Below are positions 6,411-47,263 of a stretch of DNA of 64,000 bases, in pieces. Made by a program: the position numbers and the translations under genes. The notes beneath the pieces were generated by a model. It was not told where the DNA came from, ran no database searches, and saw nothing but the letters and a program-made list of their open reading frames with translations. Source of the stretch: Euglena gracilis (Eukaryota); NCBI GenBank assembly GCA_039621445.1, contig CP154954.1:10063521-10127520 (forward strand). Reading direction: 5' to 3'. Position 1 is the stretch's first letter, and the number at the start of each line of letters is the position of its first letter.

Positions 6411-6696
6411 CGATTTTAGGACGCGCGCCGCCCGCGCGGCTGCCCGCGGACCCCGCTGCTGCTCGCCCCCCCTCAGCCCCCCCCCCCCGTCCCTAGAGCG
6501 ACCTTGGCGACCCTGGAGTTGGCCCACAACCTGGAGCGACCTCAACGACCATAGCGACCCCAGGGTCGGCCCACTACCCCCCAGGCCTGATCTACCCCCT
6601 CCCGTGAGAGAGCACTTAAGACTAGACAATCAAAATGGGACAGGCATGCAATACAAATCCCTCCTGTGTTGATTGTACCTCGTGATTTCACCGATG

Positions 6697-6880
6697 TACC
6701 CCCCCCCTAAATGACCCTATTAATGTTGCTTCAGGACCCCCCAAAGGGTCATCTAGGGGGGGGTCATTTAGGGGGGGGATACTTTTCCCACTTGAAAAAT
6801 TGCTCTGCTCTATGACCCCCCCCCCCTAGATGACCCCCCAGGGGGGGTCATCTAGGGGGGGGGGTCATTTAGGGGGGGGT
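6697..6880. mobile_element. Family A MITE-like repeat copy
   Basis: Matches 2600-2837 and is the inverted partner of 7181-7366. Confidence 0.8.
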
Positions 6881-7180: not shown

Positions 7181-7366
7181 TACCCCCCCCCCTAAATGAC
7201 CCCCCCCCCCCTAGATGACCCCCCTGGGGGGGTCATCTAGGGGGGGGTCATAGAGCAGAGCAATTTTTCAAGTGGGAAAAGTATCCCCCCCCTAAATGAC
7301 CCCCCCCCTAGATGACCCTTTGGGGGGTCCTGAAGCAACATTAATAGGGTCATTTAGGGGGGGGGG
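7181..7366. mobile_element. Family A MITE-like repeat copy (inverted relative to 6697-6880)
   Basis: Reverse complement of 6697-6880 apart from homopolymer lengths. Confidence 0.8.
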
Positions 7367-8668
7367 TGGTATTGTCCCCCGGCCATTTTCTGCAAATATT
7401 TTTTTTACGTTTTTTCTCTTTTTTGCAGCCATGGCTCCCAAAAATGCGCCAGACAGTGCTGTCTTTCAAGCCGGCCAAATTTGCCAAAAAAAATTGGCCA
7501 TTCTGAGGGGGGGGGACACTTTGAGGGGGGGGGGTGAGGGCACCACAGCCCATGCCCAAAAGGCAGCGGACGACCGAGTCCTCCCAATAGTGTTCCATAC
7601 CCGGCCCAACGGCAGTGCAACAAAAGGCATTTGTGAATGTGGTTTGCGAAGTGGAATCACTCCGCTTTGCAGTCCAATCACGTATCATCAAAATTCATTC
7701 CAACAAACAAAATTTTTTTTTTGCAAAGCTCCAGATCACCTGATCCTCCCCCCACTGTGCCTAGCATAGCCAAGAAAAAGGCATTTTTTTTCAGCAAAAA
7801 TGGCCCAAAAGTGGCCAAAAATGACCACTTTTTGGACCCAAAAATGGGCCGCGCGCCGCCTGCGCGACCGCCCTCCCCCCCCTCCCCCCCCCCCCGCGGC
7901 CGCTCACCCCCCCAGCCCCCCCCCCACTATGCCTAGCCTCCAAAGTGATGGCTTGTGCCATCTCGGCACGATATTGCCCTAATTGACGAACCAGATACCA
8001 TGCCCCCCCTCGATAGTACCCTCCCCCCCCCCCCCCCGATATTGTCCCATGCCCCTGCAATGTGACCCAGCCGGCCAGTCCTAAAAGAATTTTATTCCCC
8101 CCCCCCCCCCGATAGTGTCCCCCCATACCCGCCCCCCCCCCCCTGCCTAACCTCCCATGCATTTTCATATGTGGGTAATCATACTGGTGCAGGGTGACCA
8201 TTTGGCCCCATCTGAACCATTTTTGGGTGATTTGGGTCAGAGGCGACTAGGCCTGGTCGGTACCTAGTCGGCGAGACGGGGGGGGGGGGTAGTCGGCCAA
8301 CGACGGCGAAACACCCATAATGAACTAACGGGTCAATGTCGCTGACTTTTAAGCCCCCGCCCCCTACACGCAGGGTGGGGGTGACAATTAGGGGGGGGGT
8401 TACTCAATTCACCCCACATTTCCATGGTTTCCATGGGTAACCCCCCCCCTAATTGTTGCCCCCAAGGGGGGGCAACTATTAGGGGGGGGTGACAAATAGG
8501 GGGGGTCACGTTAGGGGGGGTGCATTCAATTCAAGTGGTATTTTGTGCAACCACACAAAAGATGACATTCTGCATTTCCAATTATTTTTTTCGCGGTATA
8601 ATTCCTCGCCACAATTTTTGGTGGGAGTGGTTAGCATTTGTTGACGAACCCGGACTGTAACCAATAGC

Positions 8669-18300: not shown

Positions 18301-21300
18301 GTGGTTGGTGAGCAACACAATCATTCGGGGTGCACTATCACTCAGGAGATCCATCAGGTGGGCAAGTTCATCAACATGATCCTGCTGGGGCTGGAAAAGA
18401 GTTTGCGTACCTTGCCCCACACAGCGATGGACGATCTCAAGGCAAGGGTTCTCATCCTCTGCCGTGGATAAGCCAAATAAAAGAGAAAGCTATGAGAATC
18501 TAAAGAATTGACCCGAAGGCCCTGCCTCCTGCACCTATCGCACTGGTCCATTCCAAAATGGCCCTGATGCACCGGGCTTGGTGCTGATGGACACATAGAA
18601 CCAACATGGGGTGATACCTGGGGTGATCACAAAGTGCTCTCTTCCCCAAATCTGCACATTGGGTTGCTTTGCAGACAATCCACACACTTGTTCATGTGTG
18701 CATACTCACGTGTGTATGTGTGCATGTATGTACGTGTGCACGTTTGCATGTGTGTATGTGGGTAAGAATTTATGAATGGATGGATGGATGAATGCATGGA
18801 TGGATGGATGGGTGGATGGGTGAATGGATGGATGGATGGATGGATGGATGGATGGATGGGTGGGTGGGTGGGTGGATGGATGGATGGATGGGTGGGTGGG
18901 TGGATGGATGGATGGATGGATGCGTTCTTTTCAAATAATACAATAAAGAAACGGGTTTTCAATTTTTTGAAAAGTAATGCCTTTTCCACTAACCCGAAAA
19001 TTGGATCGGCCGGCGCTGGCCCCAGATTGTGCTGGCCTCGTTTGTGTTGTCCGTCATGGCGGCGGTGGGGGAGGAGCTGCTGTTCCGCGGGGCCATCCAG
19101 GGCGGGCTGCGCCCATGCCGCCTCCCGAGGGACGACCCAGTGGTTCCTGGTTCCTTCTCCGGTGGGCTTTCTGAGCGTGACTCCCCTTGAGCATCATCCC
19201 GCCCTCGAACTCTCACCCTCCAAAGCCAACCCGCAGATAAACCTCCAAATTGTGGATCATATTATAAACTCCCTCCCCCGAATAACCTTGCAGGCCCTTG
19301 CCCCTGGCAGTAGAGGGGCGAACCCCGAGGACCAGTGGTTCATTCTGCTTGTTCTGATGTTTCGGCTGGAGGAACCGTTTTTTTCATTTTTTTTTTTACG
19401 ACACCTATCCTCCCAACAATAGAATTATTTTCTCCCTGCCCTTCCTCCTCTTGGTCCAGCTTGGATGGGTAACACCAGGGGGGTGACTGACAGAAGCCAA
19501 AGTGCATCTAAGGGGGTGACTGACTGGTTTTTTCAGGCCAGAGCCCCCCCCCCCCGGCCCCAAAAACGAAACAGTGGCTGGCCTAGCGCCGGAATTTTTT
19601 TGGATTTTTTGAGACTTTTTGGAAGTATTGCCTTGCCAACATGAGCACATTCAAGAGTGGCCGATCCCCCCCGGGGGGGGGTAAAGTGACTGACTTGTTT
19701 TTTTGGGAAAAAGTGACTGACTGGTTTTTTTTTTCAGAGTGGAAAGTGACCGGGGGTCCCTAAGCAATGGTATGGTCCAGAATGGGCATTATCGAGCAAA
19801 TATTTCCCGTTTTGTACCCAGCCAGGACCCATATTCTCACCTCTCGGGGTGCGACTGTAGGTGGAGGCACGCCAAACAAAAGGCAGCAACTGGGGGGGGT
19901 TAGGAGCTTGGGGACCGGGTTAACTAAATGTTTCCCCAAATTTCCTTCAACGCCACATCGTTCTAACCCACAATTGTGGGATCTTGGGAGCGGCCCTCTG
20001 GGGTGTGCTTTGGCAGCCAGCCACGACAAGGAGCGGGTGGTGGCATGCCGGTAGCAATTGTTGACGTTCCTCGGCGCTAACCCCACTGCCACCGGAGCTG
20101 TTCCACTCCAGTGCCCCCCTGTGGTCGGTTGTCTGGATTGATTTCGAGAAACATGGCGACAAGCACAATTGCTAAAATAGCCGGGAAAATCATAACGTTT
20201 TGAACTCTTTTGCTAAAATAGCCGGGAAAATCATAACGTTTTGAACTCTTTTCAAAAATGGCCGAGAAACTTTTTTCCATGTGCGTTGACAAATTATTGT
20301 GGACATTGCAACGCAGTGTCGCAGCTAGAACATGTGAAAGATGAAATAATGCTCCACCGAACGTTCCGTGCAGCTGACATTTTTCTTTGTTATTGAAAAG
20401 TTCCATCCAGGATGCGAGTGATGTGATTGATGAGGTTTATCAGTGATCGACAAGAGACCCAAGACAAGACAAGACAAGACAAGACAAGACCGTGATATAT
20501 TTATTTATGTTTATATCAAAGAATATGATAAAATGTATTTTTTTTTCAACATTATCTGTCTGGTCCCAACTGTAACAGGATTCGGCTTCGTCTCAAAAGG
20601 GGGAGTGGGTCACTGAGGACCACAGCCACGCACCACCGTTTTTTGCCAGAAACTTTTGCACAGCGCGACAGAGACAGAGACAGTGGCCCATACTGGGAGG
20701 TGCTTTTTTTCAGAGTGACTGGTTTTTGGCCTGGATCCCCTCCCCCCTGGGGGGAGGTAGTCGGCAAAAATCATAAAGTGACCCGGTGTCGAGTCACCCA
20801 CTGCCCCCCCGGGGGGGGGGAGTTGGCCACCCTGGAATCCAAGGGAAAGTTCACCACAAACATGAAAATAAAATGGACATCCAGTGCCTCGGTGACTGGC
20901 AGGTGTTTGTATGAGTGAAAGTGATCTCCTCCCCCGGCCCGGGGGGGGGGGGGGGTTGGTAAAAATTTCATGCACTGGCCCCCGATTATGGTCAGCAGCC
21001 TGCTGTTCGGGATCGTCCACAACTACACCAACAGCCCGATCTATGCGGTGCTGGTCACGCACCTATAAAAATGACCAAGCGTGACTGGGGTGTCCAAGTT
21101 TGAGATTTTGGATGACCCTAGGTGCGTGCTGCTGGTCACGCTGGGCGGAATGGCGTTCGGTGGGTCCTTCCTGACAACGGACAACCTCGCGGTGCCTATG
21201 GTGTCTCATTTCCTGCTCAGGGTGTCCATCTGCCTTGCAAGGCTTCAGTTTATTTGGTATGCCCATACAACCCAAATTGTTTCTCCTTCTGGCTCACAAT

Positions 21301-21974
21301 TCTTGTGGTAAAGTGTGATTGTGGTAAATTGTAATTTGTGGTAAAGTGTGATTTCAAAGATACATTCGCTTCAATGGGAGAGGAGAGTGATTTGCTTCTA
21401 TGTGTGATGAAGGTTTTAAACGTGTCTTTTCATGTAGCATACTGTATTTCTCATAAATTGTGCAATTCTTGCTCCGCCCGCCCTTACCTGAGAAGGAACC
21501 CCTGGGACATTTTTTTTTCCAGTATGTATTTATAGGCACATATGTATTTCAGGCACAGGAATTGTTTTGGGACCCGGAGGAGAGCAGCGCCACGTCCGGA
21601 GCCCCAATTGCTTCAAATTCGAACAAAGAAATGCCCTTTTCTCTCCAAGTACGTCACACATTTGTCTTTTGATCCCGGAAGGGTGTTGCCGTCTGCCATT
21701 CTGTCTCCACGCTCCTCCTTTCCTGCCCTAAATTCCTGACACGGCCAACAATCCGCAACACTGTGAGCTCAGTTTTGTCCCCCCCCCCCCCGACGCCCTG
21801 GCCCCAGTCAACTTCATCGGCTTCCTCTGGGGCTACACGGTCGTCTGCTGGCTGGACTCCCCCGAGGAGCAGTCCCGCACCTGGAACGGCACCGCCCCCC
21901 TGATCCGCACTCTGCGCCGGCGGTACCACAAGGAACAGGGCCGGGCAGCCGCCGCGGACACCCCCGAACCCTGA
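10119..21974 (+). CDS. CPBP/Abi-family (type II CAAX) intramembrane protease with a Euglena-type plastid presequence; ~14 exons: 10119-10193, 11471-11707, 12481-12573(?), 13742-13880, 14610-14653, 16100-16183, 17246-17286, 17761-17872, 18346-~18387, ~18994-19110, 20053-20104, 20984-21052, 21134-21214, 21806-21974
   Basis: The spliced product carries the CPBP motifs [17 protein letters not shown] and PMVSHFLVN. All joins keep frame using GT-AG or paired +4/-6 junctions. The first three exons are less certain. Confidence 0.88.
10194..11470 (+). other. Nonconventional intron
   Basis: GGTTGATTCCA (from +4) pairs perfectly with TGGAATCAACC (ending -6). In-frame join YIE|ATL. Confidence 0.75.
15082..15392. 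repeat. Compound microsatellite (CGT/CAT)n-(CCA)n-(CAT)n inside GT-AG intron 14654-16099
   Basis: Seen directly; pure CAC/CCA run at ~15213-15333. Confidence 0.97.
16184..17245 (+). other. Nonconventional intron
   Basis: CAGGAG at +4 pairs with CTCCTG ending -6. In-frame join GLCA|MLVQ. Confidence 0.8.
17287..17760 (+). other. Nonconventional intron
   Basis: CAGAGGTTGGACA pairs with TGTCCAACCTTTG. In-frame join VLGS|AFHL. Confidence 0.85.
18774..18921. repeat. (TGGA/TGGG)n microsatellite, intronic
   Basis: Seen directly. Confidence 0.95.
19111..20052 (+). other. Nonconventional intron
   Basis: CATGCCGCCTCCCG pairs with CGGGTGGTGGCATG; C|G...T|A junction; join GGLQ|QLL. Confidence 0.85.
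20105..20983 (+). other. Nonconventional intron
   Basis: CCAGTGC pairs with GCACTGG. Join GAVP|IMVSS. Confidence 0.8.
21053..21133 (+). other. 81-nt nonconventional intron with direct repeats at both junctions
   Basis: CACGCACCTA/TAGGTGCGTG form a perfect 10-bp stem. In-frame stops inside require its removal. Confidence 0.9.
21215..21805 (+). other. Nonconventional intron (consensus RNN-CAG...CTG-NNNNY)
   Basis: GCT-CAGGGTGTC ... GACGCCCTG-GCCCC. Removal restores the H-x-x-x-N motif SHFL|VN. Confidence 0.92.
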
Positions 21975-22475
21975 TCAGCCTCTGGCGCGCGGCCATCGTC
22001 CTTCCCGTCCTCAAACCTCCCCCCCCCCAAATGGCGGCGTCGTGGACGATATCTGCACCCGCGGCGCTGCCTCGCGCTTCGATGCACGTTGCGGGCGTTA
22101 ATGCGTCTCCCGCAAATGGTCACTTTTGAGCGAATCCCATCCCCGAACCCTGGAGTCTCACACCTGACCGACCGTTGGGAGCCGGACTCACCTGGCTTTC
22201 TGTACACTATCCATGGCGGCGGGCGATCGTGGGGGGGGCGGTGGGGGAGAGAAGGGAAAGAAAACGGAGGGGTGCGAAAAAAAAAGAAAGGAGAAATGGT
22301 AAGAAGGGAAAGAATAAGAAAGACAAGAGGAGAGAAGAAGGGTGCTAAGAAGAAGAAGGCAGAAGAAGTACACCATCCATGCTGCGTTTCGACTCCTACG
22401 ACGACATCCAGTCTGTGGGCCCCAAACCCCCCTCCTCCTCCTGGCCTCTTCAATAACTCCTCATCCTCCTCCTCT

Positions 22476-23446
22476 ATGGCTCCGGACCGTCCTGGAGAGG
22501 GACAGCCAGCACCATTTTCCGGCCGGAACTCCCAAATAATGTCCCCCCCACACTTCTCACAGAATGCCACAGAAAAAAATGATTTTTCTGGGAAAAAATA
22601 CTCTGTGGAAGTTTTACATAATTTCTTCTATGATCGGATTGAATACGGATGAGAAATACCAAATTGCAAAAGAATTGCACCTACCATGGGTTTTGATGGT
22701 GTTCAACATAGATGCAATCATTTTGCGTTCAAATTTTTATGCCCATGTTTTTACGAAAAATGTTGCTAAATACTACCCCCCCCCCCCCGAAGGTTGACTT
22801 CAGCTGCCCAAATGATATCCATTATTTGGGGGCGGGGGTTCGGGGTTCCCTGATGCCGGAGAGGACCCCCACCAGGGGTGGGGGTCTAGCCAGCCAACAC
22901 CTTGTTCCAGTCAGCCCACCCCCCTTGGGGTCCGCTGAAATTTGCCGAGCTGGAGTTGTGAGCTGGCTGCTGGGTATTCTTTCCAAAATATCCAGAGTTG
23001 GCCGAACACGTGGCGTTTTTGAGGGCTTATGGGGTTTCACCTCAAAACCTTTGGCTGACAAATCCCAACCCAGCTGGCTTGGGACGTTTTTACCTGTTTT
23101 GGCGTCCAGCCAGGTTCAGCTGCCAGTCGGACCCCCCCCCCCTCTAGAGGGGGTCCAGCCAGCACCTTTCCAAGCCGGCCTGCCGGACCCCCCAGGAGGT
23201 TTTAAGAACAACCCCTGGTCCCGAGACGTCTCTGCCTTCCCCAGCCATGCGTCCTCCATGTTCCCCCATGCTGCCGTCCTCCTCCTTGCACTCTTCCTGC
23301 TGTCTCTCCTGCTGTTCGCCAACCAGGGCGGGACCTCGCTGTCTGCTCCTCGAGCCCCCGCTGTCCCTCCGCTCCGCGTGACACATGGCAGTCCTACGTC
23401 GCTGCAGAGCCAGGCAGCCCACAGCTATACAGTTATGCAGTGGCTG

Positions 23447-23480
<34 letters not shown>

Positions 23481-26400
23481 TGCGTGCGCGCGTGTGTCTG
23501 CATGATATGCATGTGTGTACATGCATATCCGTCCAAGTGAATTTCATGAATTTTCCACTTGCTTCTTATGCAGCAAATGGTCCACTTGCGTCAAATTTAT
23601 TTTAGCTCTAAATGCCTTTCAACTAGCCATGTTGAAAATATGCATTTTTTGACTCCAATTTTTTAATTCCAATGCCAAAAATTGAAGATGACAGAGATGG
23701 TTCCAGATTTTCTGCTCTCCAGTTGAACACATATTTTTTTTGTCAGAACCTCTCCCCCCAACACAAATGGGGTGATTTTGGAGGGATTCAAAATATGAGG
23801 CAGGTGTCTGAAAATAATCAACGTGCACCGTGTGTTTCTCAGACGGTCGACATACCAACAACCACCCTCTGTGGTCTGCTGCCATTTCGGCACTTTGCCA
23901 TTTGCCATTTTCGCAATTGCCATGCCATCGGAGCTAACAGCGTCCATCTTTTTTTTCGATCTTTGCCAAGTCAGTGGTCTTCCGGCGTTTTTAATGCTGC
24001 AACCAGAGCACATTCTTTCTTCATTGGGGTACAATCAAAAAAATGAGCCAATTTGCTCGCCACTGCTTTTATGGGGGGGGGCTGGAAATGAAAGATTTTT
24101 GAATCAATGTCTGAACCAATGCAGTACATTATTTTTTGCTTTCTGCTTGTCCACGTGAGGGTTAATTGTCTCCACCCTTTGGGGCCTTGCAGCAATTGAT
24201 CAGCCTAATTTTGGATTTATTTATTGTGTTATGCATTTTGTTATGTTTTTCCAGTTGCCAAGTTTATCCCTTTTCTGCACTGAATCACTGCTTCCTTTGA
24301 AATCATACCTTCTGCTTGTGACTCTTGCAATAATAAATTATATAATACATGCAGATATATCATGCACAGAAACATGTGTACATGTGGAAATTGTAAAATA
24401 TTGTCCTGGAAACTGAATATTTTCATATTGCATTTGAAATTGAACATTGCAATATTCAACCCTGCATGCATGAAACATCAGAATTAGATCCCGGGCTTGC
24501 TTTTTTGGGTTGGCCACTGAAAGTCCCAATATATATACAGTATGGTTCATAATGATTCATACACCCCATGGTTCATAATCATCAAAAAAATGCTGGAGGC
24601 ATGACAGGATATGTATGTCAAGGCATTAATACGCATATACATGCCTCCAAATGGAGCAGGCAAAAGAGCGTCGTGTACAATATTCGGCACCACATGAAAA
24701 ATCTCAAAAAATTAAAAAGGGGGGGTGTATGAATCATTATGAAGCATACTGTATATATACATATGCGTATATAGTATAATATAATATAATGCATTATATA
24801 TGCATATATACATATATAATGCATTATTCATTTTTATTTTATTACAGGTCATATATTATTTTGGGGGGTAATTTCCATTTCTTTTTTGTTTTCTATTTTT
24901 TTTGCTGACGATTTGGCCGAGAAATGCTTTGCTAGCATAAGCAGGAAAAAGTTTACAAAAAACAGTATTTTTCACAACAAGCAATAAAAAGTTATTCTAA
25001 AAATGCCAACACATGAAAAATATCGAAAAAACCCCAAAATTTTAAAAAAATATCCCATTTTTGGGGGGTCTATGTTTTCGGATTTTCCCCTCGAGAATCT
25101 CGAGGGGGTCTTACTTCATCTATTTTTGGGGGTTTATTTGCCTATTTGTTGGATTTTAGCTCAAATCAGCAAAATGGTTGTATTTTTTTTGGTCACACGT
25201 ATGATTTTTGTTGTCCCCAACCTTTCACAATCAAATGGCTGTATTACTTTTGGGGCTGCCCCCACCCATTTCATCCACCCGGAGGGAATATGTGGCGCTG
25301 CGCCGCCCACCCTCCGTCACGCGCTACGCAGCTGGCACTCCCACGGCCAGGGCCGAACGGAACGATGGGCCGAAATGGTGGCAGGGGGGGGGGGGCTCAA
25401 CCAGGCTCCGGCCACCTCCACGTACACAGACAAGAAGGGCCAGAGGCGAACAACAGCGCCAGGCGAGAAGAAGGGATAAAAGGCACCAAAAAGAAGCCAC
25501 AGTGCACACAGGGGGGGGGCTCAACCACACACCCCACACACAGACAAAAAAGGACCAGAGGCCAAAAACAGCGCCACGCCAGAAGAAGGGATAAAAGGCA
25601 CCAAACAAACAGCCACAGTGCACACATGGGGTTCAACAACCCCCACCCCAACAGCAGAGATTTTCTCAAGCCAGAGGTGACCCAATCCCAGGGTTTTACC
25701 CAGCCAACACTTTTTTTTTCCGCTTGCAACTCCCAGCACGGCTGCGGAGCCCCTCCCCTTGGGGTCAAGCTGAGGCCAGCCTGCCAAAGCCAGCCCGGAC
25801 CGAAACTGTTTTGGCGCAAAGCGACAAAAATGTGGAAAACAGGGGTCAAAAATGGCCAAAAATGGCATTTTTGAGGGAGGTTTGGGTTTTCATCCCCAAA
25901 TTTCTGCTCCTTCCAACCCACCTGGATTCAGGCGGTTTGTCTGTTTTCGGGGCCAAGCCGGGTCCAGCTACCAGGTGGGTCACCTCTCCCTCTCTACCCC
26001 ATACGGGTGAGGGGTCCAGCCAGCACCTTTTTCCGGCCGGCCAGCGGGACCCCCTCGAACGGTTTTTAAGAAAACCCCTGGCGGGGGGGGGGGGGGAGGG
26101 GTCAACACTTCCCGACCGGCCTGTGCAGCCCTGCCCGCAGGCTGCTGCAGATGGCGCAGCAGCGGCTGTTCTGGCTGCAGGGGGTCAACGCCTCCGTGGA
26201 CGCTGAGCTGCGGGCGAGCGGCTTCGAGACCTTTGGTGTGGCTTTCTCCAGCCTGAACTCCAGCTGGAGACGAGGCCCAGGGAGTCCAGAGTCTTAGGCA
26301 GCAGGGTTCTTTGCGCAATTGCACAAAGAATGAAGAAACATTTTTTCCGCTTCATTTCTCATCTCAAAAAGTGAGATTGGCCCTCGTTTTTGCGTTTTTG

Positions 26401-29400
26401 GCTGGCAGCTAGTTTTTGTTAGTGACCCCAGGGAGGTGCCCCAAACCCCCCTTTTCTTTTTTTCTTCCCGGCTGGTGGCACGTTTTCAGCGGTCGGCAGA
26501 CGCGATGTTTTGCAGCCCGAAAATGACAAGCACGTGAATTGAACACAAAAAAGGGGCCGAGGAGAAGGTCCTGACCGCATTTTTTTCCCATGGTGCTGGT
26601 GGCCTCGGAGTGTGCCCTAACCTCCTGGCCCCCCATTTTTGTTTTTCCAATCATCTCAAACCCTGTGAAAGAGATTTTTGGATTTTTGGTCTCTTGAGCT
26701 GGTCCTCCTTCCCCTCACCACCCAACAGTCCCTGAAGTGAATTGCATGCACCTGGTCTGTCAGCCAAAGGTCACATGCATTTGCAGTAAAGGGAAATCAT
26801 TCTTATTGATGGCCGCAGATAATCTGCTTTTCAAGGAATTCCGTCAAAAAGGATCTGACCTTCAAAAAGCTGTTCCCAGCTGTGTGGGGGTGCGATTTGA
26901 GAGGTTTTTGTGTCGGTGGTTTGCTTAAATCGGTGAATGAAATGCTCAGGGAGCTGTATTCAGGCAAGAGAAGCGAAGAGGCCCTGATTTTTCATGTGCT
27001 CCGCTCCCCATGCTCCATCTTTCAGGCGGGTCGAATGTGAACATTGCCATGGCGGTGGAAAACCTCGTGCAGCCTCCCTTTTCAAACTCACTCTGGGATC
27101 TGTATTTGGCCCTAAAAGAGCTTTCCAAGACATTTTACCTTTCCCAAACCATGTTGCCGGGTTGCGTGCGTTATATTGTCTCGAAGTATTACACAAGATT
27201 GTCAATTCGATGGCCCCCAGGTTGTCGCTGGGGTTCATTCGTCCTGGCGTCTGTCTAAGACAGATTTGCCTCCTGCATCCCCCAATGGTGTTTTTTCCCC
27301 CCACAAAAAACCTGCACATAAATCGCATAAAGTCACCTGTGACCACAAAAATCAATTTCCTAGAGATCACACCAGTCTCAAAAAATTACATAAAAAATAA
27401 ATCATTTAAAATAATTTAGCTGATGTTTACACTAAACTTTGTACTCTGACTGATATAATTTTAACAGTTATGGCGTTTAGGTAAGTCACTTCCTGAAAGG
27501 CCCTGTGTGCTATTCCTCTTTCTTCTCAAACCCGAAGCACTGCACAGTCGGTGCCGCTTCACTGCTCTGCACTGTCACTGCTGCTGCACTTTGGCATTAC
27601 TCTCCCAATACTGCTGATGCGGAAAAATTAATACCAGTGCTACTGCCAACATTAGCACAAATACTTATTCAAATGCTAATCCCTCATACCTCATACCAAA
27701 CACATAATACCTAATACACAATACCAAACTCTTCATACCTCATACCTCATACCTCATACATTTAATGCCTAATTCCTAACACCTAACACCTAAAACCTAA
27801 AACCTAAAATCGTAGACAAAATTTTATTACCTAATGCCTGATACCTAATATCTAATACCAAATACCTGATACCTAATACCTAATACCTAATACTCAATTC
27901 CTAATACTTAATGTGGGGTGCCTGCTCGACCACCCCTCTCGGAGTCAAAGGCCGTTTTGAAGGGGCATCTGCAATTGGTTTACCCAATAAAGATCCCATC
28001 GCAGATGATCTTTTGTGGCAAATTTCACGTTCCAGTGTTTGGTGCTCTTTTTCTTGTCTTGTAGTTTTTTCCATCACAGCATTGTTAGACCTAGATATTG
28101 ATTCAGGAGAATTAATTTCAAATTTCTGACTATTTCACGTTGTTAGGGAGTAAATGGCAGATGAGGATGAAGCACGAAAAAGGCAAGCGTTTCAAAAAAA
28201 CAAGGGACAGAGCTGGTTTAGTATCAGCATTAGCATTAGTATTCGGCATTTGCATTAGCATGCATTTGCATTAGCATTGGCATTGGCATTGGCATTGGCA
28301 TTGGCATTGGCATTAGCATTAGCATTAGCATTAGCATTAGCATCAGTATAGTATTAAGAATTGGTATTAGCATAAAGATAACCCAATCAGCCTCTGGGGA
28401 TCAAAAATCAACCCTCTATTTGGGCGCAAATGAAATTGTTTCGCACGAAATCGGGTTCAAAAACCACCAAAATATCTTTGGTCTCGGTTCGTTGTGAAGT
28501 TTCGTTTAAGCTTTTTGCCCACTTTTTCCAGCTGCCAACCTTGATGGAACCACTCCCTTGAGCAACTGTGTTTGGAACTCCCCTCCAATCATCCTGCTGT
28601 TTCAGAAGGAAAGGAACGCTGCTGCCATGGAGCACGCCACGACAGAGCTGATTCTCATTTTGGAGGCTGCGCTGTTTTTCCGCCCAATTTATCACTTTTT
28701 TTTTTGCACTGAAGGACTGTATTTGACCAGTTCAGCAGTTCAATCATATGTTTTCGAAAGATCACATTTCTGTGAGTTGATTTACAATTGTGGAAGGCGG
28801 AGCAATCTTTTGTAAGATGATTTAACTTGAAGAAACGTGGCCTTGCCTTTTCCAATTTTTTTTTGTATTCATCTTCATTCATCTTCTTTCATCTGCACCT
28901 TCATTCATCTTTTTTTTTACTCTTGTCCTGCTTTAGTTTTTCTTCTCTGTTCCACACAAACTGACCCTACGTTTACTCTGCAAATGTTTTGATTTTTTGA
29001 GTCCGAGATGCTTCCACACATCATGAACAATGCAGAAGGTAGATCTGTCCATTGTTTTTTTGGCAGTTTCTCCTCCGTCAAGCTTGCCATTTGATCGGAT
29101 GTTTGCATCATTAAACATAAACATCATGATGGTGGAAATGGAGACCTGAAAAGGGAAGTGAACAAAAAAAAAACGGACCAACAGCGCCCCAGCGAAAGAC
29201 TGGGTGTTGGTGGAGTCAGCCTTGGAGGCTTTTGAGCAGCTGCAGACAGGAACCAGGGCCAAATGGAAAATGCACGTCCTGTGACGAGAGTTGTTTTCCT
29301 GTGGCGCTTTCGGCACCACTGGTCACAGAAACTGCATATTCATAGACCAAACAACAAGTCTCGGCGCTATGAATACATTTCTACACCAAAACACATTTTT

Positions 29401-32400
29401 TTTGTTTCACAATGTGCAGGATGTTTGAACTGTCTCACAACAGACCAAGAACCGTTTTTACAGTATCTTTAGTTACAAAGTGATTTTCGAGTCAATACCC
29501 GCAGAAATGTGTTCGTGGAATAACTCCCCCCCAAATAATAACCCCCCGCCCCCTATACTGACCCCCCCCCCCCAAGTAATAACCCCCCCTGAGTTCGGCC
29601 GCCCAAATAATAACCCCCCCCCTCCGGCAGGTGTGAATGCAAAGGAAAAGAGATTCAAAAACCAACAGAATGCTGAAAATTTTTGAAAGGTGCTATTTTT
29701 GTATTTTTTTCCGTGATTTTTGAGTGGGTCCCCCGGACCCCTGGGGGCCCCTCCAGGGGTGGTGGATGGGGGGACCCCCCCACCCCTCGGTCTTAAAAAA
29801 ACCTCTGGCAGGCCTTAGATTCAATTGGCACCTGTGTGACCCCTCCCCTCAGGGATGTGGTGGGTGGATTTTTGGGGCTGCTGGATCCCCCCAGGGGAAG
29901 CCCCCCCCCAGGTCACCAAGTTTAGAGTTCAAAAAAACTCTGAGCCTGAAGCGGTGGACAGCCCAGGGTGGTCCGACCCCCCCATTAGCCCCCATGCACA
30001 GTGGAGATTACTGTGCAATATCCTGCTCCTTGGTGCTTGGCCAGGAGAGCCAGCACTTGGCCAGAGTCACTTGAGCACTTGGCCAGAGTGACTTGGTGAC
30101 CCCTGGGGGGGGGGGGGCGAGTGGGTATCCTCGCGGTGGGGGCGTCCTATTTGCGGTGCGAAGCCACGACCCGAACTGGACAAAACCGAAATCCTCGAGG
30201 TCCAACATGGAGGTTTCGTCCCTCCGGACCTGGGCGGTTTGCCCGGCAACCCCGCCGCCGTGGCCGTGCGAACGCTATTGTTGTCGCTGACCCTGGGGCT
30301 GGGTGCCCCCCCCCCTATGCCCTGCAAAAAAAATTGCAAAAATGGATAAAATATAAAAGAAAGTATGCCATTAAAGCACCCATTTTTCAAAAAAGCCCCA
30401 AAATGCCAAAAAGTGACCACTGGAGCCTGTGGAGGGTTTTTTTGAGTCGATTTTTGACTTCCAAAAATCCCCCCCCCCAAATGATAAACCCCCCAAATAA
30501 TAAACTCCCCCTGGACCCCGACTTCGAGTGTCCAAATAATAAACCGGGGGGGGAGGTTTATTATTTTGGGAGGTTTACTCTGTGTGAAGCAATTTTTCTG
30601 CATGAGGCTGTGAAAATTGTCGTTGCTGTTTTTTTTTTGGTCGGATGTGATGTTCTTTTAATGTGATTTCATGCATGTTCCCCCCCCCAAGGTTCTGCAC
30701 TTTTTTTTTGCATTTTCGTGCTTTTGTTTGAATTTCCCCAGTTTTTACATTTTGCACCTTTTTTTTCTAAAGCATTCTCCACAACTCTTCACAACTCTTC
30801 CTTTCAACCCATTTCCCCCCTTTGAAGTATTTTGTGATTCCTTTTTTGAGTTTTGGTGCATTTCGCAGTTTTGTTTTCTTGGCCGACGTGTGGTCGTGAC
30901 CATGTTTGTGCCATGCGTTCTTCTTGTTTACCAGGCCAATCTCCCCCTTCCTATTTGCGTTGCACAGCACCAGACCTATCCCTAACCCCAGATAGGAGTG
31001 TCGGGAGCCTATCGACGAGTTTTTTTTTGTTGTTGTCGAGCGCCTGAAGGGTGGCTAGATGGTAGCGGATTCTCTGTCGGAGGTGCAAAAATTGCGCAAA
31101 AATGGGGAAGAAATGCCGTCAAATTTTGGGTCAAAACTCGACTTTCGCACAATTGGCAGTTGTTCGCGGCGTTTTTTCAGTCAGGCCAGTTCTAGCCTTG
31201 AGTTGGGACCCTCCATGTGGGGAGAAGTGGGGGCAGCACGGAGCCTTTTTCAGCCCAAATTTTCCCAGCCTCTGAGTTGGACCCCCTGGGAGGGTTCGCC
31301 AAGGGTGAAGCATCCCCCCCATGTGGTTAGTTTCCACCAGTTTGGTGGACAAGCAGCGGAGGGGGGGTCTGCACAATGCTGATGTGATTCTGGCGGTTCG
31401 GCCAACGGTCATACCTCCGTCCCTTCCGCCCTGGAGTTGGTCCAATTGTTGCAGTCAGGCAAAGCCAACTGGACGTTGCCCGGGTTCCACTCATTAAATG
31501 TGCAGTTGGGAATGGAAGCCAGAGGAAACTCGAGGTTGATGGTTGATGGTTTTTATTTGAAAGAGAATCCTCCATCATCCATCACCCAAAGCTATAATTA
31601 TCCTTTTTGTGTTTTGAAAATTTTATTTTCTATTAGGGATTTCTTGTTTAGTTTAGGAATCCTGATGTTTGTGAAAATTGGTGAATGATTTTGCATCAAA
31701 GGTCCCCACTGCCTCAACAATTTTGCTCAGCCATTGCAATTTAGAGATACTGCTCATTTATTCTGCATACCTTAGTGCAGTTTTTTTTTTTGACATTTTC
31801 GAATTCCAAGTCCCGCCCCAAGTGCCTCTGATACGATACCCCATTGAACCCTGTTGAACCCAATGAACTTTGGCTTCTTTCTGCCCGTTCGGTTGAATTG
31901 TGGAGTTCAAGTCGACAGGATTTTGTCTAAACTGTGATGCCAACGCCCACTGTCAACGTTGTCCGCTACCGGTCACACTACCAGTACGGTTACCCCATGT
32001 GGATGTTCTCCATCATCGGCGAGCGGAACGAGCAAACCTTCGCCAAGAAGTACCCTCAAATGATGCAGTATTTCTGCAACTGTTTCCACTGGTGTGGCCC
32101 GTGCACTGGGATGTGGTATACACATTTGCCACCTGCGTCATGATTATAGATGACTCATGTCTTCAAATATTAGTCCGAATGTATCAACTTCATTTATGTA
32201 AGTATTTATGCAAGGTTCTTACAACACATGACAAAAATTGATGGCATGATCGCCTCAACTGTTCAGCAAACACATTTCTCGGTTGCCAGTTGCCCTGTCC
32301 TGCATTGCGGAAAAACAAACATTCTTTCTTCTTGTGAACAAAGCAGATGTATGTTTTTTTTAGACACGATTGGTTTGAAGGTTGGGGAGGTTCCTTCCGA

Positions 32401-35400
32401 CTGTCCCTGCCACATGTTGCAGGTACACAATGGCGGAGATGCAGAAGAAGTATCCCAGGCCAGCCGCGTGCCAAATGAACTTCACCTTCGGGTGAACGAC
32501 CTGCCGTGTGTTTGAAAGTGCTCGCATTAGCCACAACTTTGCTTCTTTTTTTCTTGTTTTCTGTTTCCTTTTTTTATTTGATGCTTTTCCTTTCAAGTAC
32601 TCCTCTTCTATTGGCTCCCGCGGCTGGGCCCATATCTTCTCATTTTGCGGAGCCAATTCCACCGTGATTTGCGTTGATCAGGGACGCGATGCGGCACCGA
32701 AAATCCGCAGAAAGCGTGGGTACGCGCATGCCTTGAAGGAAGGCCTCAACCTCAACCTCGGGGTCTGCGCTCATGCCATTGCACAGATGGCACGAACTGG
32801 GTGAGGGGAATGGGGGTGGGGTGGGGGGATAGGAATGGGTACATTCTTTCCTAGAGGCGAGGGGTTGGGGTGGGGGTTATGTTTGGGATAGGGTTTGGAT
32901 CTCGTTGGCCAGCAAAGTTAGGAATGAGATCTGGGAGGGGGCAGGGAGGGCGTGGGGGTTGGGGTCCCGGGTTCGTGCTGTGTCTCTTCCATTGTTCCTC
33001 CAGTTGTTCCGCTCGGTGTTTACGCATATGTGCCTGGTTCAGGGTGACAGGGTGCTTGGCATTGTCTGGCAAATACCCCCAGCGAATGGTAAAGGGCCAC
33101 TCCTGGACCATCCCTGGCCCTGACTCTTCGCGGTGCAACTGGACCAACAACCCCACCCAGTGGCGATTGGACAACCCCTCGGATGAGGTTGGTCCCAAAC
33201 ATCAAACAGAGGAGATCATGTCCAAACTCACAACAGAACGTTTAAAATGTCCAACACTGTTTCTCCCGTTCATCCAGGATAATGCCTCTCAAAATGGGTG
33301 AGACACGTGTTCCCATCTTTCATCATGCTTCATTGGGCTGGAGGCATCCAAAGGTGGTGTGGTGCCCATGATTTTCATGATTACAATCTAAATCAAAATC
33401 ATAGGCATAATCATAATCACAATCAGAATCATAAGCATAATCAGAATCGTGATTGTAATCGGAATCACAATCATACTCAGAATGGTGATCGTAGTTTTTG
33501 ATCAAGCTGAACCAGTTTTTTTTTTAACTTTATAATGATTTCCACATTTTGGCTCGGAAATTCCCCCAGAGTCCAATGCCATAAAATCTATTCTGTATAT
33601 TTACCAATAATTTTGAAATTGTTGCAAAGTCGACAAAGCTAACGATTGCAGAATTGTCGACCCCGTCTGTATCGTGTAATCGTTTCCTTTCCACCAACCC
33701 CACATTCTTTCCGCACACGCCGGCCACTGGCCGCGCCCTCTTCAAAGCCGCGTTTTGGCGCCAGCATTTGTCCCCCATCGCGCACACCTGTGGCCCAGCC
33801 CAGGCCAACAGGTCTGCCGGTGTTGCTTGGTTTCTTGCTTGGAACCGGTATTTTTTTATTGGCAGACGATTCCAGTCAGGGATTTATTGGGTGACCGCCA
33901 GACCCCCTTTCCCCAAGGGAACCCCAAAGGGCGTTGTGGGTCCCCGGCCAGAGGTGGGGGGTTTCGGCCATTTTTCTTACGATGCGAAGCGACGCTTTGA
34001 CCCAAAACCCCAAAATTGACACCCAAAGGGTCTTAAAAGAATCCTTTTCCATCGTTCCCTCAGCTGAATTTGTAATTGTCTGCACTGCTGTGGACAGGAT
34101 TGGCCAGAGGATGACATTGGCTTTTTCAGCAAAGGCTGATGAGACTGGAGCTTTTTCAGCAGAGGCAAGGCTGGCTAGGGCATTCTGCTGAGCTTGATAT
34201 TATGTGCAGTTCCGTTTCCTGACAAACTGCAGGTGTTTCGAGGACACCCTGGATACCAAGCCAGAGACATGGAAGGCCAAGCATTTGACCGTCGCCTTCA
34301 CCGAAGGTGACTTTGTGGTCCTTCCAAGCTGTCGGAAATGGAATAAGGGAACGTGGTGCTGAAACCTTGTCATCCTTCTGATCCTTCTCCATTTCCCCCA
34401 CGAACAATTGGCATACACTTACAAATGATTCCTGGGGATAGGCATTGGTAAAAACTTGTTCTGAAAAATTGCTGGCGGAAAATTGAAATACTTCTGAAAT
34501 GGTCCGTACACATGTGGGAGGTTTTGTTGAAAATGGCAGTTAGAAGAATTTTGTTTATACCTCATGCTTTCATTTTGTGGCTGGTTACTCGTCGCGCAAA
34601 AATCAGCGGTTTGGGCGAAGTTCTCATTTTGGCTTAGAAGAACTGTGTGGTTTCCTTAAAGTTGACCAATAGTATTTGATAAGCTAACATCGTTAATTGC
34701 TATTACAGCATCATTGACATTTTTTTTCTTCTAAACCGTGCATACCCCATTGAAACCTTCTTTTGTTTTGTTGTTCTGCGGGTTTCATGATCATAAACAG
34801 AACCCTACACTTTTTTTTAAAAAAATTTGCCTGCAATTTATCCTCTTTCCACACCTTAATTTTATGTGCATTTACTCCACTGCCCAAATTGTCCCAACCA
34901 ATTTTATCTATGTCAATATGCATGTACATATGGCAACCATTGGTTATACGCCCCCCGCCCCAGGGGGGGGGTCGTATAACCAATCCAGGGGGGTCAATTT
35001 TTTTGGGTTATTGATGGAATTGGGTTAGGGTTAGGAGTTTGGCCTAATTTTCAGGCTAACGTGCACATCTAACACTAATGAATAAGTTAGGCCCTTAATA
35101 ATCTAATAAACTCAACAAAGAAGACAATGTGTGTGTGCATATGTATGTACATGGATGTACATGTATGCATACATGTATATATGCACATACAGATATACAT
35201 GTACATGTGTATGATACATGCATTACACATATATGCATGTACGGTATGTAGGGGGGGTCATATAGCCAATCCAGGGGGTTATTGATGGAATATGGTTTGG
35301 TATATTTTTTTCGTTTTTTTTTTTGCCTCAATCCCCTCACATCTTTTGCTGGTGAAATTTCAGTAAATTTTCATATTTCCAAGGTCATTACCCACGACTT

Positions 35401-35757
35401 TGGTCGTTGAACATGGTCGCTTCACCCATGAATCATGGGTGAAGCGCCGGTGTTGCAATTTCACAGTGCACGGAACCAGTGGGTTGCAAGTTTGCATTCT
35501 GTTATCTTTGCTTTGTTTCTCTTAGCCGACCGCTGTCCCCTCCGTGCCCCCTCTGCGCAGGTTTATTCAAACACGTGGACATCCAAAAGTACGGCAACAA
35601 GTCTCAGACCGACCACGTGTACCACGGCCGCCGAGGGGTCCAGGGCGTCGCTGAAGCTGCATACCCCCCTCCCCCCCCGAGGCGGGGGGGCCAGCCAGCC
35701 GCAGCCCTTTTCCACCCAGCCGCCTTTTCCATTCAGCCCAAGTTCTCCCAGCTCTGA
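22476..35757 (+). CDS. Putative type II membrane glycosyltransferase (GT-A/GT2-like); exons include 22476-22488(?), 23250-~23448, ~25238-25258, 25301-25344, 26139-26235, 27026-27066, 28627-~28664, ~29194-29250, 31439-31466, 31955-32091, 32423-32457, 32632-32675, 33122-33154, 33735-33811, 34233-34306, 35561-~35646 and a final piece ending 35757
   Basis: Signal anchor AAVLLLALFLLSLLLF. Spliced core reads TLRHALRSWHSHRLLQ...NVNIAMAVENLMEHATTELILILEKDWVLVE...GKANVVRYRS...CNCFHW...NWTNNPALFK...EGLFKHVD. ILEKD is a DxD-like strand end. The gene is well supported; the function is inferred, and 23450-25240 is unresolved. Confidence 0.7.
27690..27910. repeat. Degenerate heptamer array (CCTAATA/CCTCATA/CCTAAAA)n, intronic
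   Basis: Seen directly. Confidence 0.8.
28220..28372. repeat. (GCATTR)n hexamer microsatellite, intronic
   Basis: Seen directly. Confidence 0.9.
32458..32631 (+). other. Nonconventional intron
   Basis: GGC-CAGCCGCG ... CGCGGCTG-GGCCC. Join KYP|NIFS. Confidence 0.88.
33155..33734 (+). other. Nonconventional intron
   Basis: ACC-CAGTGGC ... GCCACTG-GCCGC. Join WTNNP|ALFK. Contains a degenerate (AATCAY)n array at ~33375-33490. Confidence 0.88.
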
Positions 35758-36383
35758 GCTGACCATGCTGAAAGCGCAGAGCCGGGTCGTTCCGCGACAC
35801 CCTGGAGGGGACAGAAAAGACGCAAAGCCTCACAGACGGTAACCCCCCGTCTTTTCCCTCCATTGTGGGTCTGCTTTGTGCAGTGCTGTTGATGCTTGTT
35901 GCCGCAGGAAGGTTCCGTATGGTTCTGGATGTTTGTGTTGCGCTTTGCCTCATTCCGTGGAGCTCTGTGAGATTATCTGCTCCCCCCAAACCTGCCCCTT
36001 CTCTTTACGAAAAACAGCCTGGCCTACCACGAAACCTCCCGCGAGGTCACGCCTCCTAACCGAAACTTTCACACCGTCTTCTCGGACGTGGCCCCACGCC
36101 GCCATCCGGTTGCCTTGCTTTCCTGTTCCGCGGTGCTCACTGCGGGCTGTCACACAGGAAGTGTGGCTTGCGTCCACCAGATCCCATTTGATGATCAGCC
36201 CACCCACCAGTGCGCATCACGTCTTTTGGCACCTCTTTTTCTTCACATTTCCTTTCCACTCTTGTGGTGTTTTGAATTTGAGGGCTGTGGCAACCCCCCC
36301 ATGACTTGGTTCCACCCTTGCCTTTGGCAGTGGCTGGGCATATTTCCAGTAAAAGCGCCGAGACAGTGGCGATCACGACAGCA

Positions 36384-37921: not shown

Positions 37922-38074
37922 AAGTATGGTTGCAGCTTCTTTCTTCTGAAGGCCCCCTCACCCTTGATGACCTTGACCCCCTTTGACCCCTTGACCGTCT
38001 CCTCGAGGATATGCTGTCCCCATGGAGACTGCCCCCCTTGCGCTACGGCTTCGGACGCGACCGTCTTGTGGGCG

Positions 38075-45973: not shown

Positions 45974-46157
45974 CCCGGTGGGCCAGGGCGCGGGAATCGC
46001 GGCCTGGGTTCGCGCCTAGGCCGTTGAGCCCACTCAGCGCCCGGTGATGGACAGCTCCATCGCCAACCGAGACAAAAAAATCAAAAAAAAAAAACAACAA
46101 AAAAGAATAAGAGATAAACAAAACAAAAAAAAAAAACAAAACAAAAAAAAAAAAAAA

Positions 46158-47232: not shown

Positions 47233-47263
<31 letters not shown>

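What the first reader, a model, noticed from the sequence alone, without database searches (positions are those of the whole stretch)
21048..21141. 81-nt intron retaining a 7/8 target-site duplication
Seen: a perfect 10-bp terminal stem (21056-21065/21119-21128) flanked by GTGCTGGT (21048-21055) and CTGCTGGT (21129-21136); the repeat extends to 12 nt (TGCTGGTCACGC). Partial matches at the same register: 6/8 at 25259-25300, and 5/8 at 25345-26138, 31467-31954, 32676-33121 and 33155-33734. Several other introns show only 0-3/8. Inference: recent intron gain by insertion; a local tandem duplication is an alternative.
Basis: partly seen in the sequence, partly recalled or inferred. Interest (0 to 1): 0.7.

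Follow-up and report, generated by a model that had tools for sequence, protein, structure and literature searches.

The report
Young Euglena intron with insertion scar
This is a real 81-base intron of the unusual non-GT-AG kind that Euglena uses, flanked by an exceptionally long 12-base duplicated sequence that looks like the scar of the insertion that created it; the phenomenon is already described in print.

Summary
TGCTGGTCACGC occurs at 21049-21060 and 21130-21141, 81 nt apart, around a perfect 10-bp inverted repeat (21056-21065/21119-21128).

RNA reads from two runs (7 reads each) and one transcript contig skip exactly 81 nt, with a 12-nt ambiguity in the joint. A Euglena gracilis transcript protein reads straight across the joint.

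The host is a CPBP/Rce1-like protease gene. None of the 13 equivalent registers has GT/GC-AG ends. Register 21053-21133 gives the published euglenid nonconventional geometry: 3-nt spacer, stem, 5-nt spacer, purine. The motif is CAC/GTG instead of CAG/CTG.

Among 18 introns mapped in this window the next longest junction repeat is 6 nt. By chance, 12 nt is expected 0.28 times in about 413,000 introns.

An insertion scar is the best reading. Recency, and transposon versus break repair, remain untested, because no genome or orthologous DNA was available. The repeat is really 12 nt and overlaps the stem by 5 nt, so it is not a clean 8-bp duplication.

A recently gained E. agilis intron with an 8/8 repeat in the same register is already published. 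This is a new member of a known kind.

The parts
21053..21133 (+). 81-nt nonconventional intron in the register predicted by the published splicing code. RNA allows 13 equivalent registers, from 21049-21129 to 21061-21141.
   Evidence: joint 21048->21130 skips 81 nt, 'both' = 12. It is seen in 7 reads (7 starts) in X21, 7 reads (7 starts) in X22, and 1 contig of depth 122.8 in X18; only register k=4 gives a 10-bp stem starting at +4/-6, a 3-nt and a 5-nt spacer, and G as the first exon base. No register has GT/GC-AG ends.
21049..21060 (+). Direct repeat copy 1 (TGCTGGTCACGC). In the predicted register, 4 nt are exon and 8 nt are intron.
21130..21141 (+). Direct repeat copy 2. In the predicted register, 4 nt are intron and 8 nt are exon.
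21056..21065 (+). Left arm of the terminal stem (CACGCACCTA). Its first 5 nt belong to direct repeat copy 1.
   Evidence: inverted repeat I2, 10 nt, 100% complementary; in the minimum-energy fold.
21119..21128 (+). Right arm of the terminal stem (TAGGTGCGTG).
21066..21068 (+). In-frame TAA inside the intron. The 81 nt cannot be read through as coding sequence.
   Evidence: translation ...AVLVTHL*.
20987..21052 (+). Upstream exon of the CPBP/Rce1-like gene (...[21 protein letters not shown]...). The 5' edge is uncertain by 1-2 nt.
   Evidence: PF02517 profile positions 35-63; joint 20107->20989 in the X18 contig with 2 letters between; P0001.
21134..21230 (+). Downstream exon (...[28 protein letters not shown]...). 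The 3' end was not determined.
   Evidence: PF02517 profile positions 56/66-90; depth.
19019..19110 (+). Earlier exon of the same gene (Rce1-like profile positions 3-33).
   Evidence: E = 5e-5; loose end before 19019, and joint 19110->20053 in 9 + 4 reads plus a contig.
20053..20107 (+). 55-nt exon of the same gene ([18 protein letters not shown]).
   Evidence: joints on both sides.
19111..20052 (+). Neighbouring 942-nt nonconventional intron with no junction repeat. It has the same geometry with CAT/ATG at +4..+6/-8..-6 and a 9-bp stem.

Best explanation
The 81 nt are a genuine nonconventional (non-spliceosomal-type) intron in an expressed Euglena gracilis gene for a CPBP/Rce1-like membrane protease.

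How it is removed. In the pre-mRNA the two ends pair through a perfect 10-bp stem. The euglenid nonconventional machinery, whose components are still unknown, cuts 3 nt upstream of the stem on the 5' side and 5 nt downstream on the 3' side, before a purine. That places the intron at 21053-21133 and removes exactly 81 nt. The stem starts with CAC/GTG instead of the usual CAG/CTG. Pairing at +6/-8 is kept but the base identities are swapped.

What the repeat is. The perfect 12-nt direct repeat straddling both junctions is best read as the scar of the DNA event that created the intron. In that event, 12 nt of the exon were duplicated around 69 nt of foreign or filler DNA.

Shown: the anatomy, precise removal from mRNA, colinearity of the spliced protein with homologues, and the rarity of such a repeat.

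Inferred: that the repeat is an insertion scar, that the intron is evolutionarily young, and the exact cut register. Neither the mRNA nor an excised circle can reveal the register, because all 13 registers give identical products.

Mechanism. The repeat is 12 nt rather than 8 and supplies the outer 5 bp of the left stem arm. I therefore lean slightly towards fill-in of a staggered break with captured DNA, or a microhomology-guided insertion, over a classical fixed-length target-site duplication.
For: Anatomy.

Splicing:
- the 81-nt skip is seen in 14 reads from 2 RNA runs and in 1 contig from a third study.
- protein P0001 (named eukprot EG_transcript_17823) reads [15 protein letters not shown] with a single VLVT.
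- PF02517 matches P0001 residues 77-173 as one stretch.
- the alignment is colinear with prokaryotic CPBP proteins, with no 27-residue gap at the site.

Type:
- no GT/GC-AG in any of 13 registers. Register k=4 gives N3 + 10-bp stem + N5 + G.
- Published code 5'-N3CDG...CH'GN5-6|R (PMC12501133, Results read).
- The neighbouring intron 19111-20052 is RNA-confirmed and uses CAT/ATG in the same geometry.

Rarity:
- junction repeats of the 18 introns mapped in this window are 0,0,0,0,1,1,1,1,1,2,3,3,4,4,4,5,6 and 12.
- 0.28 introns with a repeat of 12 nt or more are expected by chance among 413,446. That intron count comes from the SI of PMC12501133.

Precedent: E. agilis ACOI 323 gapC intron 4 is absent from the other strains. 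It has an 8/8 repeat made of 5 exon + 3 intron nt versus 5 intron + 3 exon nt, abutting its stem (Table S3; text).
Against: - No empty site, no orthologous locus and no other strain's DNA could be examined, so 'young' is unproven.
- The one DNA run laid (X3) has zero depth over 21077-21415. It gives neither a DNA control for the joint nor independent confirmation of the 81 nt.
- In the predicted register, most repeat positions are constrained by coding or by the stem. Only 7 of the 12 repeat positions (GGT, TGCT) are free to drift, so a perfect repeat excludes only large ages.
- The motif CAC/GTG does not satisfy the experimentally defined CDG/CH'G code. In that work single substitutions inside CAG or CTG abolished splicing.
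- The test for flank-templated pieces in the 69-nt insert was not significant (k=6 P=0.34, k=7 P=0.24, k=8 P=0.049). The break-repair variant therefore has no positive support beyond the repeat's length.
Confidence: 0.6

Rival explanations
1. First reader's version. A 73-nt MITE-like element with 10-bp terminal inverted repeats (21056-21128) transposed into the exon and made an 8-bp target-site duplication (21048-55 / 21129-36). One base has since mutated. The splicing machinery removes the element plus 8 nt (3 from the left copy, 5 from the right).
For: - 7/8 match in exactly the register where the published recently gained gapC intron 4 shows 8/8.
- Across the 11 other nonconventional introns of this window, same-base matches are 43 of 88 inside that 8-nt window and 65 of 264 outside it (Fisher P = 3e-5).
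- Re-pairing 5' and 3' windows among introns gives P = 0.014.
- A MITE origin and 'TSD-like' repeats are the standing hypothesis in print (PMC3935182; PMC11282704).
Against: - The repeat is a perfect 12-mer that continues 5 nt into the left inverted-repeat arm. Under this model that is a 1-in-1024 coincidence, while the outermost position of the 8-mer mismatches.
- There is no other copy or relative of the 81 nt in the window. The best local score of 32 lies within the shuffled-query range of 26-34.
- The stem arms of the 12 nonconventional introns here show no common family sequence beyond CAG(GG).
- Much of the 8-nt window excess is shared junction composition: cross-intron pairs give 2.93/8 against 3.91/8 within introns.
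Confidence: 0.25
2. The spliced reads come from an intron-less allele or paralogue. The window's copy keeps the 81 nt in its RNA, which would make it a disabled copy with an in-frame stop.
For: - About half of the laid RNA reads are only 95-99% identical to the window (61 at 99%+ versus 59 at 95-99% in X21).
- P0001 is 95% identical to the window translation, so at least two expressed variants exist.
- The DNA run gave no coverage here.
Against: - RNA depth in the two bins containing intron sequence is what the exon parts alone would give. This is my estimate from the depth table, so little or no RNA covers the intron interior.
- The spliced X18 contig carries the window's base at 21031 (table 3).
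- The insert has textbook nonconventional-intron geometry.
Confidence: 0.05
3. The repeat is not a scar. The intron is old, and its two junctions resemble each other because of a splice-site consensus, coding constraint or chance.
For: - Junction windows of unrelated introns already match at 2.93/8, above the 2/8 expected for random sequence.
- 82-84% of Euglena introns are 'slidable' (PMC12501133).
Against: - A run of 12 of 12 is expected 0.28 times per 413,446 introns.
- It is twice the next longest of the 18 introns mapped here.
- Published consensus positions are weak and do not extend 8 nt into the exon.
Confidence: 0.06
4. A local tandem duplication of an 81-nt unit, one copy of which decayed into an intron.
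For: Only the 81-nt spacing of the repeat.
Against: - Beyond the 12-mer, in-register identity to the next 81 nt is 17 of 69, and to the previous 81 nt it is 26 of 81. Both are near the 25% chance level.
- The spliced protein is colinear with homologues, so no coding repeat was lost.
Confidence: 0.02

Closest known systems
Euglenid nonconventional introns and their splicing code (Milanowski et al. 2014 PMC3935182; 2016 PMC4770533; Nomura et al. 2025 PMC12501133)
   Same: - No GT/GC-AG ends.
- Terminal stem pairing +4..+6 with -8..-6.
- 3-nt and 5-nt spacers.
- Pyrimidine|purine at both junctions and a purine as the first exon base.
- Short direct repeats that make the boundaries 'slidable'.
- Removal confirmed in RNA.
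   Different: - The motif is CAC/GTG, not CDG/CH'G. It would fall in the 'unclassified' class of Dataset S7.
- The junction repeat is 12 nt, far longer than usual.
gapC intron 4 of Euglena agilis strain ACOI 323 (Milanowski et al. 2016, Table S3)
   Same: - A short nonconventional intron (160-162 nt there, 81 nt here).
- A long perfect junction repeat lying in the register 5 exon + 3 intron / 5 intron + 3 exon, directly abutting the stem.
- A non-CAG motif (CAT/ATG there).
- The authors read the repeat as a mark of recent gain.
   Different: - There the gain is demonstrated by absence from five other strains. Here no comparison was possible.
- There the repeat is exactly 8 nt and stops at the stem. 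Here it is 12 nt, misses the outermost of the 8 positions and runs 5 nt into the stem.
Introner elements / transposon-derived introns (Micromonas, Aureococcus, Amoebophrya; review PMC11282704; PMC7789003)
   Same: [quoted passage not shown]
   Different: Those elements form sequence families with many copies. No second copy of this one was found in the 64 kb available, and the whole genome could not be searched.
Intron gain by double-strand-break repair (Daphnia pulex, as cited in PMC4770533)
   Same: Short direct repeats flank new introns that carry unique inserted sequence.
   Different: Those are spliceosomal introns. No polymorphism data exist here. My knowledge of the Daphnia work comes from the citing passage and from recall.

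Membership tests
Euglenid nonconventional intron | Removed from mRNA in vivo | tested here: met
   the 81-nt skip is seen in 7 + 7 reads and one contig; the transcript-derived protein reads across the joint.
Euglenid nonconventional intron | Lacks GT/GC-AG borders | tested here: met
   none of the 13 equivalent registers has GT or GC at the 5' end together with AG at the 3' end.
Euglenid nonconventional intron | Stem pairing +4..+6 with -8..-6, giving a 3-nt 5' spacer and a 5-6-nt 3' spacer | tested here: met
   register 21053-21133, which lies within the RNA-permitted range, has a 10-bp stem starting at +4/-6.
Euglenid nonconventional intron | Purine as first base of the downstream exon; pyrimidine|purine at both junctions | tested here: met
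   junctions T|G and T|G, with G at 21134.
Euglenid nonconventional intron | Motif identity CDG ... CH'G (Nomura et al. 2025) | tested here: not met
   CAC ... GTG. No register offers CDG at +4 (checked by eye). Membership of the broader class stands. That class is defined by complementarity (PMC4770533), and 29% of E. agilis introns are unclassified.
Euglenid nonconventional intron | Non-spliceosomal removal, excised as a circle | not testable with these tools
   Known from the review passage. No circular-RNA data were examined.
MITE / non-autonomous TIR DNA transposon | Terminal inverted repeats | tested here: met
   10 bp, perfect.
MITE / non-autonomous TIR DNA transposon | Target-site duplication of fixed length immediately outside the inverted repeats | tested here: inconclusive
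   The match is 7/8 outside the inverted repeats, but the true repeat is 12 nt and overlaps the left arm by 5 nt.
MITE / non-autonomous TIR DNA transposon | Multiple related copies in the genome | tested here: inconclusive
   None in the 64-kb window. The whole genome is not held. No look-alike in earlier scan notes.
Recently gained intron | Absent at the orthologous site in relatives or other strains | not testable with these tools
   No euglenid genomic DNA was reachable. The metagenome scan gave only a 35%-identical relative.
Tandem duplication | In-register similarity of adjacent units beyond the junction repeat | tested here: not met
   17 of 69 downstream and 26 of 81 upstream.

The most novel reading that the evidence does not exclude
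The two cut sites of the Euglena nonconventional splicing machinery may sit inside an 8-bp target-site duplication, 3 nt into the left copy and 5 nt into the right copy. On this reading the fixed spacers (3 + 5 = 8) are a fossil of the inserting element's duplication length. Most Euglena introns would then descend from one class of DNA elements with 8-bp duplications and CAG-ended inverted repeats. From recall, those traits are typical of hAT- or P-like transposons. The excision machinery could be derived from that element's own end-recognition system.

In this window the signal is as follows:
- Matches are 43/88 inside the 8-nt window against 65/264 outside it, with sharp edges.
- The excess survives a cross-intron control only modestly (P = 0.014, 11 introns).
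- The published young intron is 8/8 in this register.
- The focal intron and intron 35638-35809 are both 7/8.

One literature search for 'nonconventional introns' + 'hAT' found no such proposal.

The focal intron's 12-nt repeat does not fit a strict 8.
Probability: 0.15. Interest if true: 0.75.

Novelty: new member of a known kind. Interest (0 to 1): 0.3.

Why it matters
How Euglena acquired hundreds of thousands of non-GT-AG introns, and what removes them, are open questions. Young introns that still carry their insertion scar are the best material for both. So far, the papers I read document only one such intron (E. agilis gapC intron 4).

This locus offers a second, cleaner candidate in the model species. 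It is very short, and it has a perfect stem and a perfect 12-nt repeat.

It is also an in vivo example of a CAC/GTG intron that lies outside the experimentally defined CDG/CH'G code. The neighbouring intron, with CAT/ATG, is another.

Because the repeat overlaps the stem, part of the recognition stem may have been built from exon sequence. That bears on whether a transposon is needed at all.

None of this is new in kind.

Tried and rejected
- Whole-genome search for other copies: no genome is held for this window.
- Earlier scan notes by place and by sequence: nothing.
- The look-up of sequencing runs: no RNA holder listed in the index. RNA evidence came from laying raw-read runs.
- DNA control: run X3 has a hole over 21077-21415. 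It says nothing either way about the intron in DNA or about an intron-less allele.
- Orthologous genomic DNA: the metagenome scan with P0001 returned one locus (L001) at 35% identity, which is not a euglenid orthologue. P0003, the only other euglenid-like protein, is truncated before the site.
- Relatives of the 81 nt in the window: exact or up to 3 mismatches, blastn-short and local alignment against shuffled queries found nothing above chance. Short recurring motifs such as AAAATGACC belong to other repeat families and do not extend.
- Flank-templated ('snap-back') origin of the insert: not significant.
- Pfam scan of 114 ORFs at 24.5-35.5 kb to check the comparator introns: no usable hit. 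They were checked instead by mapping P0009.
- Literature on transposon content of the E. gracilis assembly: the search was unproductive.
- My hand count on Tables S1-S3 of PMC4770533 (not a tool result): the 54 older nonconventional rows give about 1-6 of 8 in the same register, against 8/8 for the two gapC intron-4 rows. I give it little weight.
Full report
**What is there**

Around 21048-21141 on the + strand the sequence reads as follows:
- exon;
- the 12-mer TGCTGGTCACGC (21049-21060);
- 69 unique nt (21061-21129);
- the same 12-mer again (21130-21141);
- exon.

A perfect 10-bp inverted repeat, CACGCACCTA / TAGGTGCGTG, occupies 21056-21065 and 21119-21128. Its left arm therefore shares its first 5 nt with repeat copy 1.

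The mismatch is the outermost base. The 81-nt unit is in frame but carries TAA at 21066-21068.

**Host gene**

Three + strand ORF pieces match Pfam PF02517 (Rce1-like / CPBP protease) in order:
- 18993-19187, profile positions 3-33;
- 20925-21065, positions 35-63;
- 21075-21308, positions 56-90.

A search with the downstream exon returned one protein, P0001. Its source names it eukprot EG_transcript_17823. It is 95% identical to the window translation and reads ...[17 protein letters not shown]..., with a single VLVT across the site.

PF02517 covers P0001 residues 77-173 in one stretch. An alignment with prokaryotic CPBP proteins is colinear through the site. The 81 nt are therefore an insertion relative to the coding sequence, not former coding sequence turned into an intron.

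**RNA evidence**

I laid two raw-read RNA runs (X21, X22), one older contig set guessed to be RNA (X18) and one DNA contig set (X3) on 18930-22300.

- The joint 21048->21130 skips 81 nt, and 12 letters fit either side.
- It is seen in 7 reads at 7 start places in X21, in 7 reads at 7 start places in X22, and in one X18 contig of depth 122.8.
- It is absent from X3, but X3 has no depth at all over 21077-21415, so there is no DNA control.

Two further introns of the gene appear in the same lay:
- 19111-20052: 9 + 4 reads and a contig.
- About 20108-20986: the contig only, with a variant base. P0001 supports it.

Half of the laid reads are 95-99% identical to the window. Variants at 21175/21176 match P0001's FLMTDN against the window's FLTTDN. 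At least two expressed alleles or paralogues therefore exist.

**Type of intron**

None of the 13 registers allowed by the repeat has GT or GC with AG. The published code for Euglena nonconventional introns is 5'-N3 CDG ... CH'G N5-6 | purine, with base pairing continuing inward (PMC12501133, Results read).

Register 21053-21133 gives GGT | CAC...GTG | CTGCT | G. It has:
- a 10-bp stem starting at +4/-6;
- the 3-nt and 5-nt spacers;
- T|G at both junctions;
- a purine as the first exon base.

The one departure is C:G instead of G:C at +6/-8. This intron would therefore sit in the 'unclassified' class, which is about 29% of E. agilis introns (Dataset S7).

Milanowski et al. state that complementarity at these positions is kept rather than sequence (PMC4770533). 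The RNA-confirmed neighbour 19111-20052 uses CAT/ATG in the same geometry.

The fold of the intron alone contains the stem (-29.9 kcal/mol, z = -3.69).

**How unusual is the repeat?**

I mapped a second transcript-derived protein onto the window. P0009, named eukprot EG_transcript_14727, maps as 16 exons at 23258-35839. With the CPBP gene this gives an unselected set of 18 introns.

Their nucleotide-level junction repeats are 0,0,0,0,1,1,1,1,1,2,3,3,4,4,4,5,6 and 12. Four are GT-AG introns, whose repeats reflect the AG|GT consensus.

With the window's base composition, a repeat of 12 nt or more has probability 6.9e-7. That is 0.28 expected among the 413,446 E. gracilis introns reported in the SI of PMC12501133.

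- Four of the five comparators are real introns by the P0009 mapping.
- 25259-25300 is not.

For the 11 other nonconventional introns, the register was fixed by the stem and not by the repeat. Their same-base matches are 43/88 inside the 8-nt window and 65/264 outside it, with sharp edges (Fisher P = 3e-5).

However, 5' and 3' windows of different introns already match at 2.93/8, against 3.91/8 within introns. The re-pairing test gives P = 0.014, or 0.007 without the two junction-adjacent positions.

There is thus a modest true within-intron excess. Single values of 5/8 mean little.

**Origin**

The tandem-duplication alternative fails. Beyond the 12-mer, in-register identity is 17/69 downstream, and 26/81 upstream.

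An insertion scar is the natural reading, and it has a direct precedent. gapC intron 4 of E. agilis ACOI 323 is absent from the other strains studied. It has an 8/8 repeat in precisely this register, abutting a CAT/ATG stem (Table S3; text).

Those authors suggested double-strand-break repair. Other papers favour MITE-like transposons and call the repeats 'TSD-like' (discussion of PMC12501133).

For the present intron the two models differ as follows:
- The transposon model needs one substitution in the 8-mer plus a 5-nt coincidence between the element's left end and the exon beyond the right copy.
- A 12-nt duplication needs neither. It does imply that the outer 5 bp of the left stem arm are exon-derived, and that the insert's 3' end (GCGTG) happened to complement them, or was selected to do so.

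I found no other copy or relative of the 81 nt in the window. I also found no significant excess of flank-derived pieces in the insert. The genome itself could not be searched, and no orthologous DNA was reachable.

**Verdict**

It belongs to the euglenid nonconventional class in a non-canonical motif variant.

Its 12-nt junction repeat is genuinely exceptional and is most likely an insertion scar. That it is 'recent', and that a mobile element made it, remain untested.

Two earlier follow-ups in the same genome reached similar conclusions for other introns.

The kind of feature and the interpretation are both already in print. I therefore rate this a new member of a known kind, of moderate-to-low interest. 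Its practical value is as a very compact test case for experiments on how these introns arise and are recognised.

Noticed in passing
window 23258-35839 (+): A second expressed gene, matching eukprot EG_transcript_14727 (338 aa, no Pfam domain), maps as 16 exons with 15 introns. Ten introns have nonconventional geometry, eight of them with CAG/CTG. Four are GT-AG. One (28665/6-29193/4) fits neither class.
   Followed up: yes
window 35638-35809: A 172-nt nonconventional intron with a perfect 6-nt junction repeat (GAGGGG) and 7/8 in the 8-nt register.
   Followed up: partly
The transcript-derived protein places the flanking exons at 23883-23936 and 25306-25344.
   Followed up: yes
window 20108-20986: This intron of the CPBP gene has no stem at +4. 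Instead CCAGTG at +1..+6 pairs with CACTGG 9-14 nt from the 3' end. It is supported only by one RNA contig (with a variant base at 20988) and by P0001. It fits neither the conventional nor the published nonconventional pattern.
   Followed up: partly
window 19382-19833 and 20625-20963: Very high-copy repeats lie inside the two large CPBP introns. Summed contig word depth in the DNA run reaches 296,207, against about 100 for the flanks. They contain C-run/G-run palindromes and GTGACTGG-type motifs. Similar palindromic elements occur at 2500-2840, 6690-6850 and 7290-7370.
   Followed up: no
window 21303-21353 and 21175-21176: A 16-17-nt tandem repeat, plus nearby variants, differs between the window and the database transcript. 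This changes the predicted C-terminus of the CPBP protein (window ...SGSQFLW-stop; transcript ...SGSHAVKILVVKCDLW). It is evidence for diverged alleles or paralogues.
   Followed up: no
window 36001-48000: A block of about 70% G+C (38-46 kb) is bordered by two stretches with extreme strand asymmetry (GC skew -0.83 at 36-38 kb and -0.86 at 46-48 kb; AT skew +0.62 and +0.77).
   Followed up: no
window, 12 nonconventional introns: Four of the 12 stems begin CAGGG (25345, 29251, 32676, 35638). Otherwise the arms share no family sequence. From recall, CAG-initial inverted repeats with 8-bp duplications are typical of hAT-type elements. This is an untested lead.
   Followed up: no
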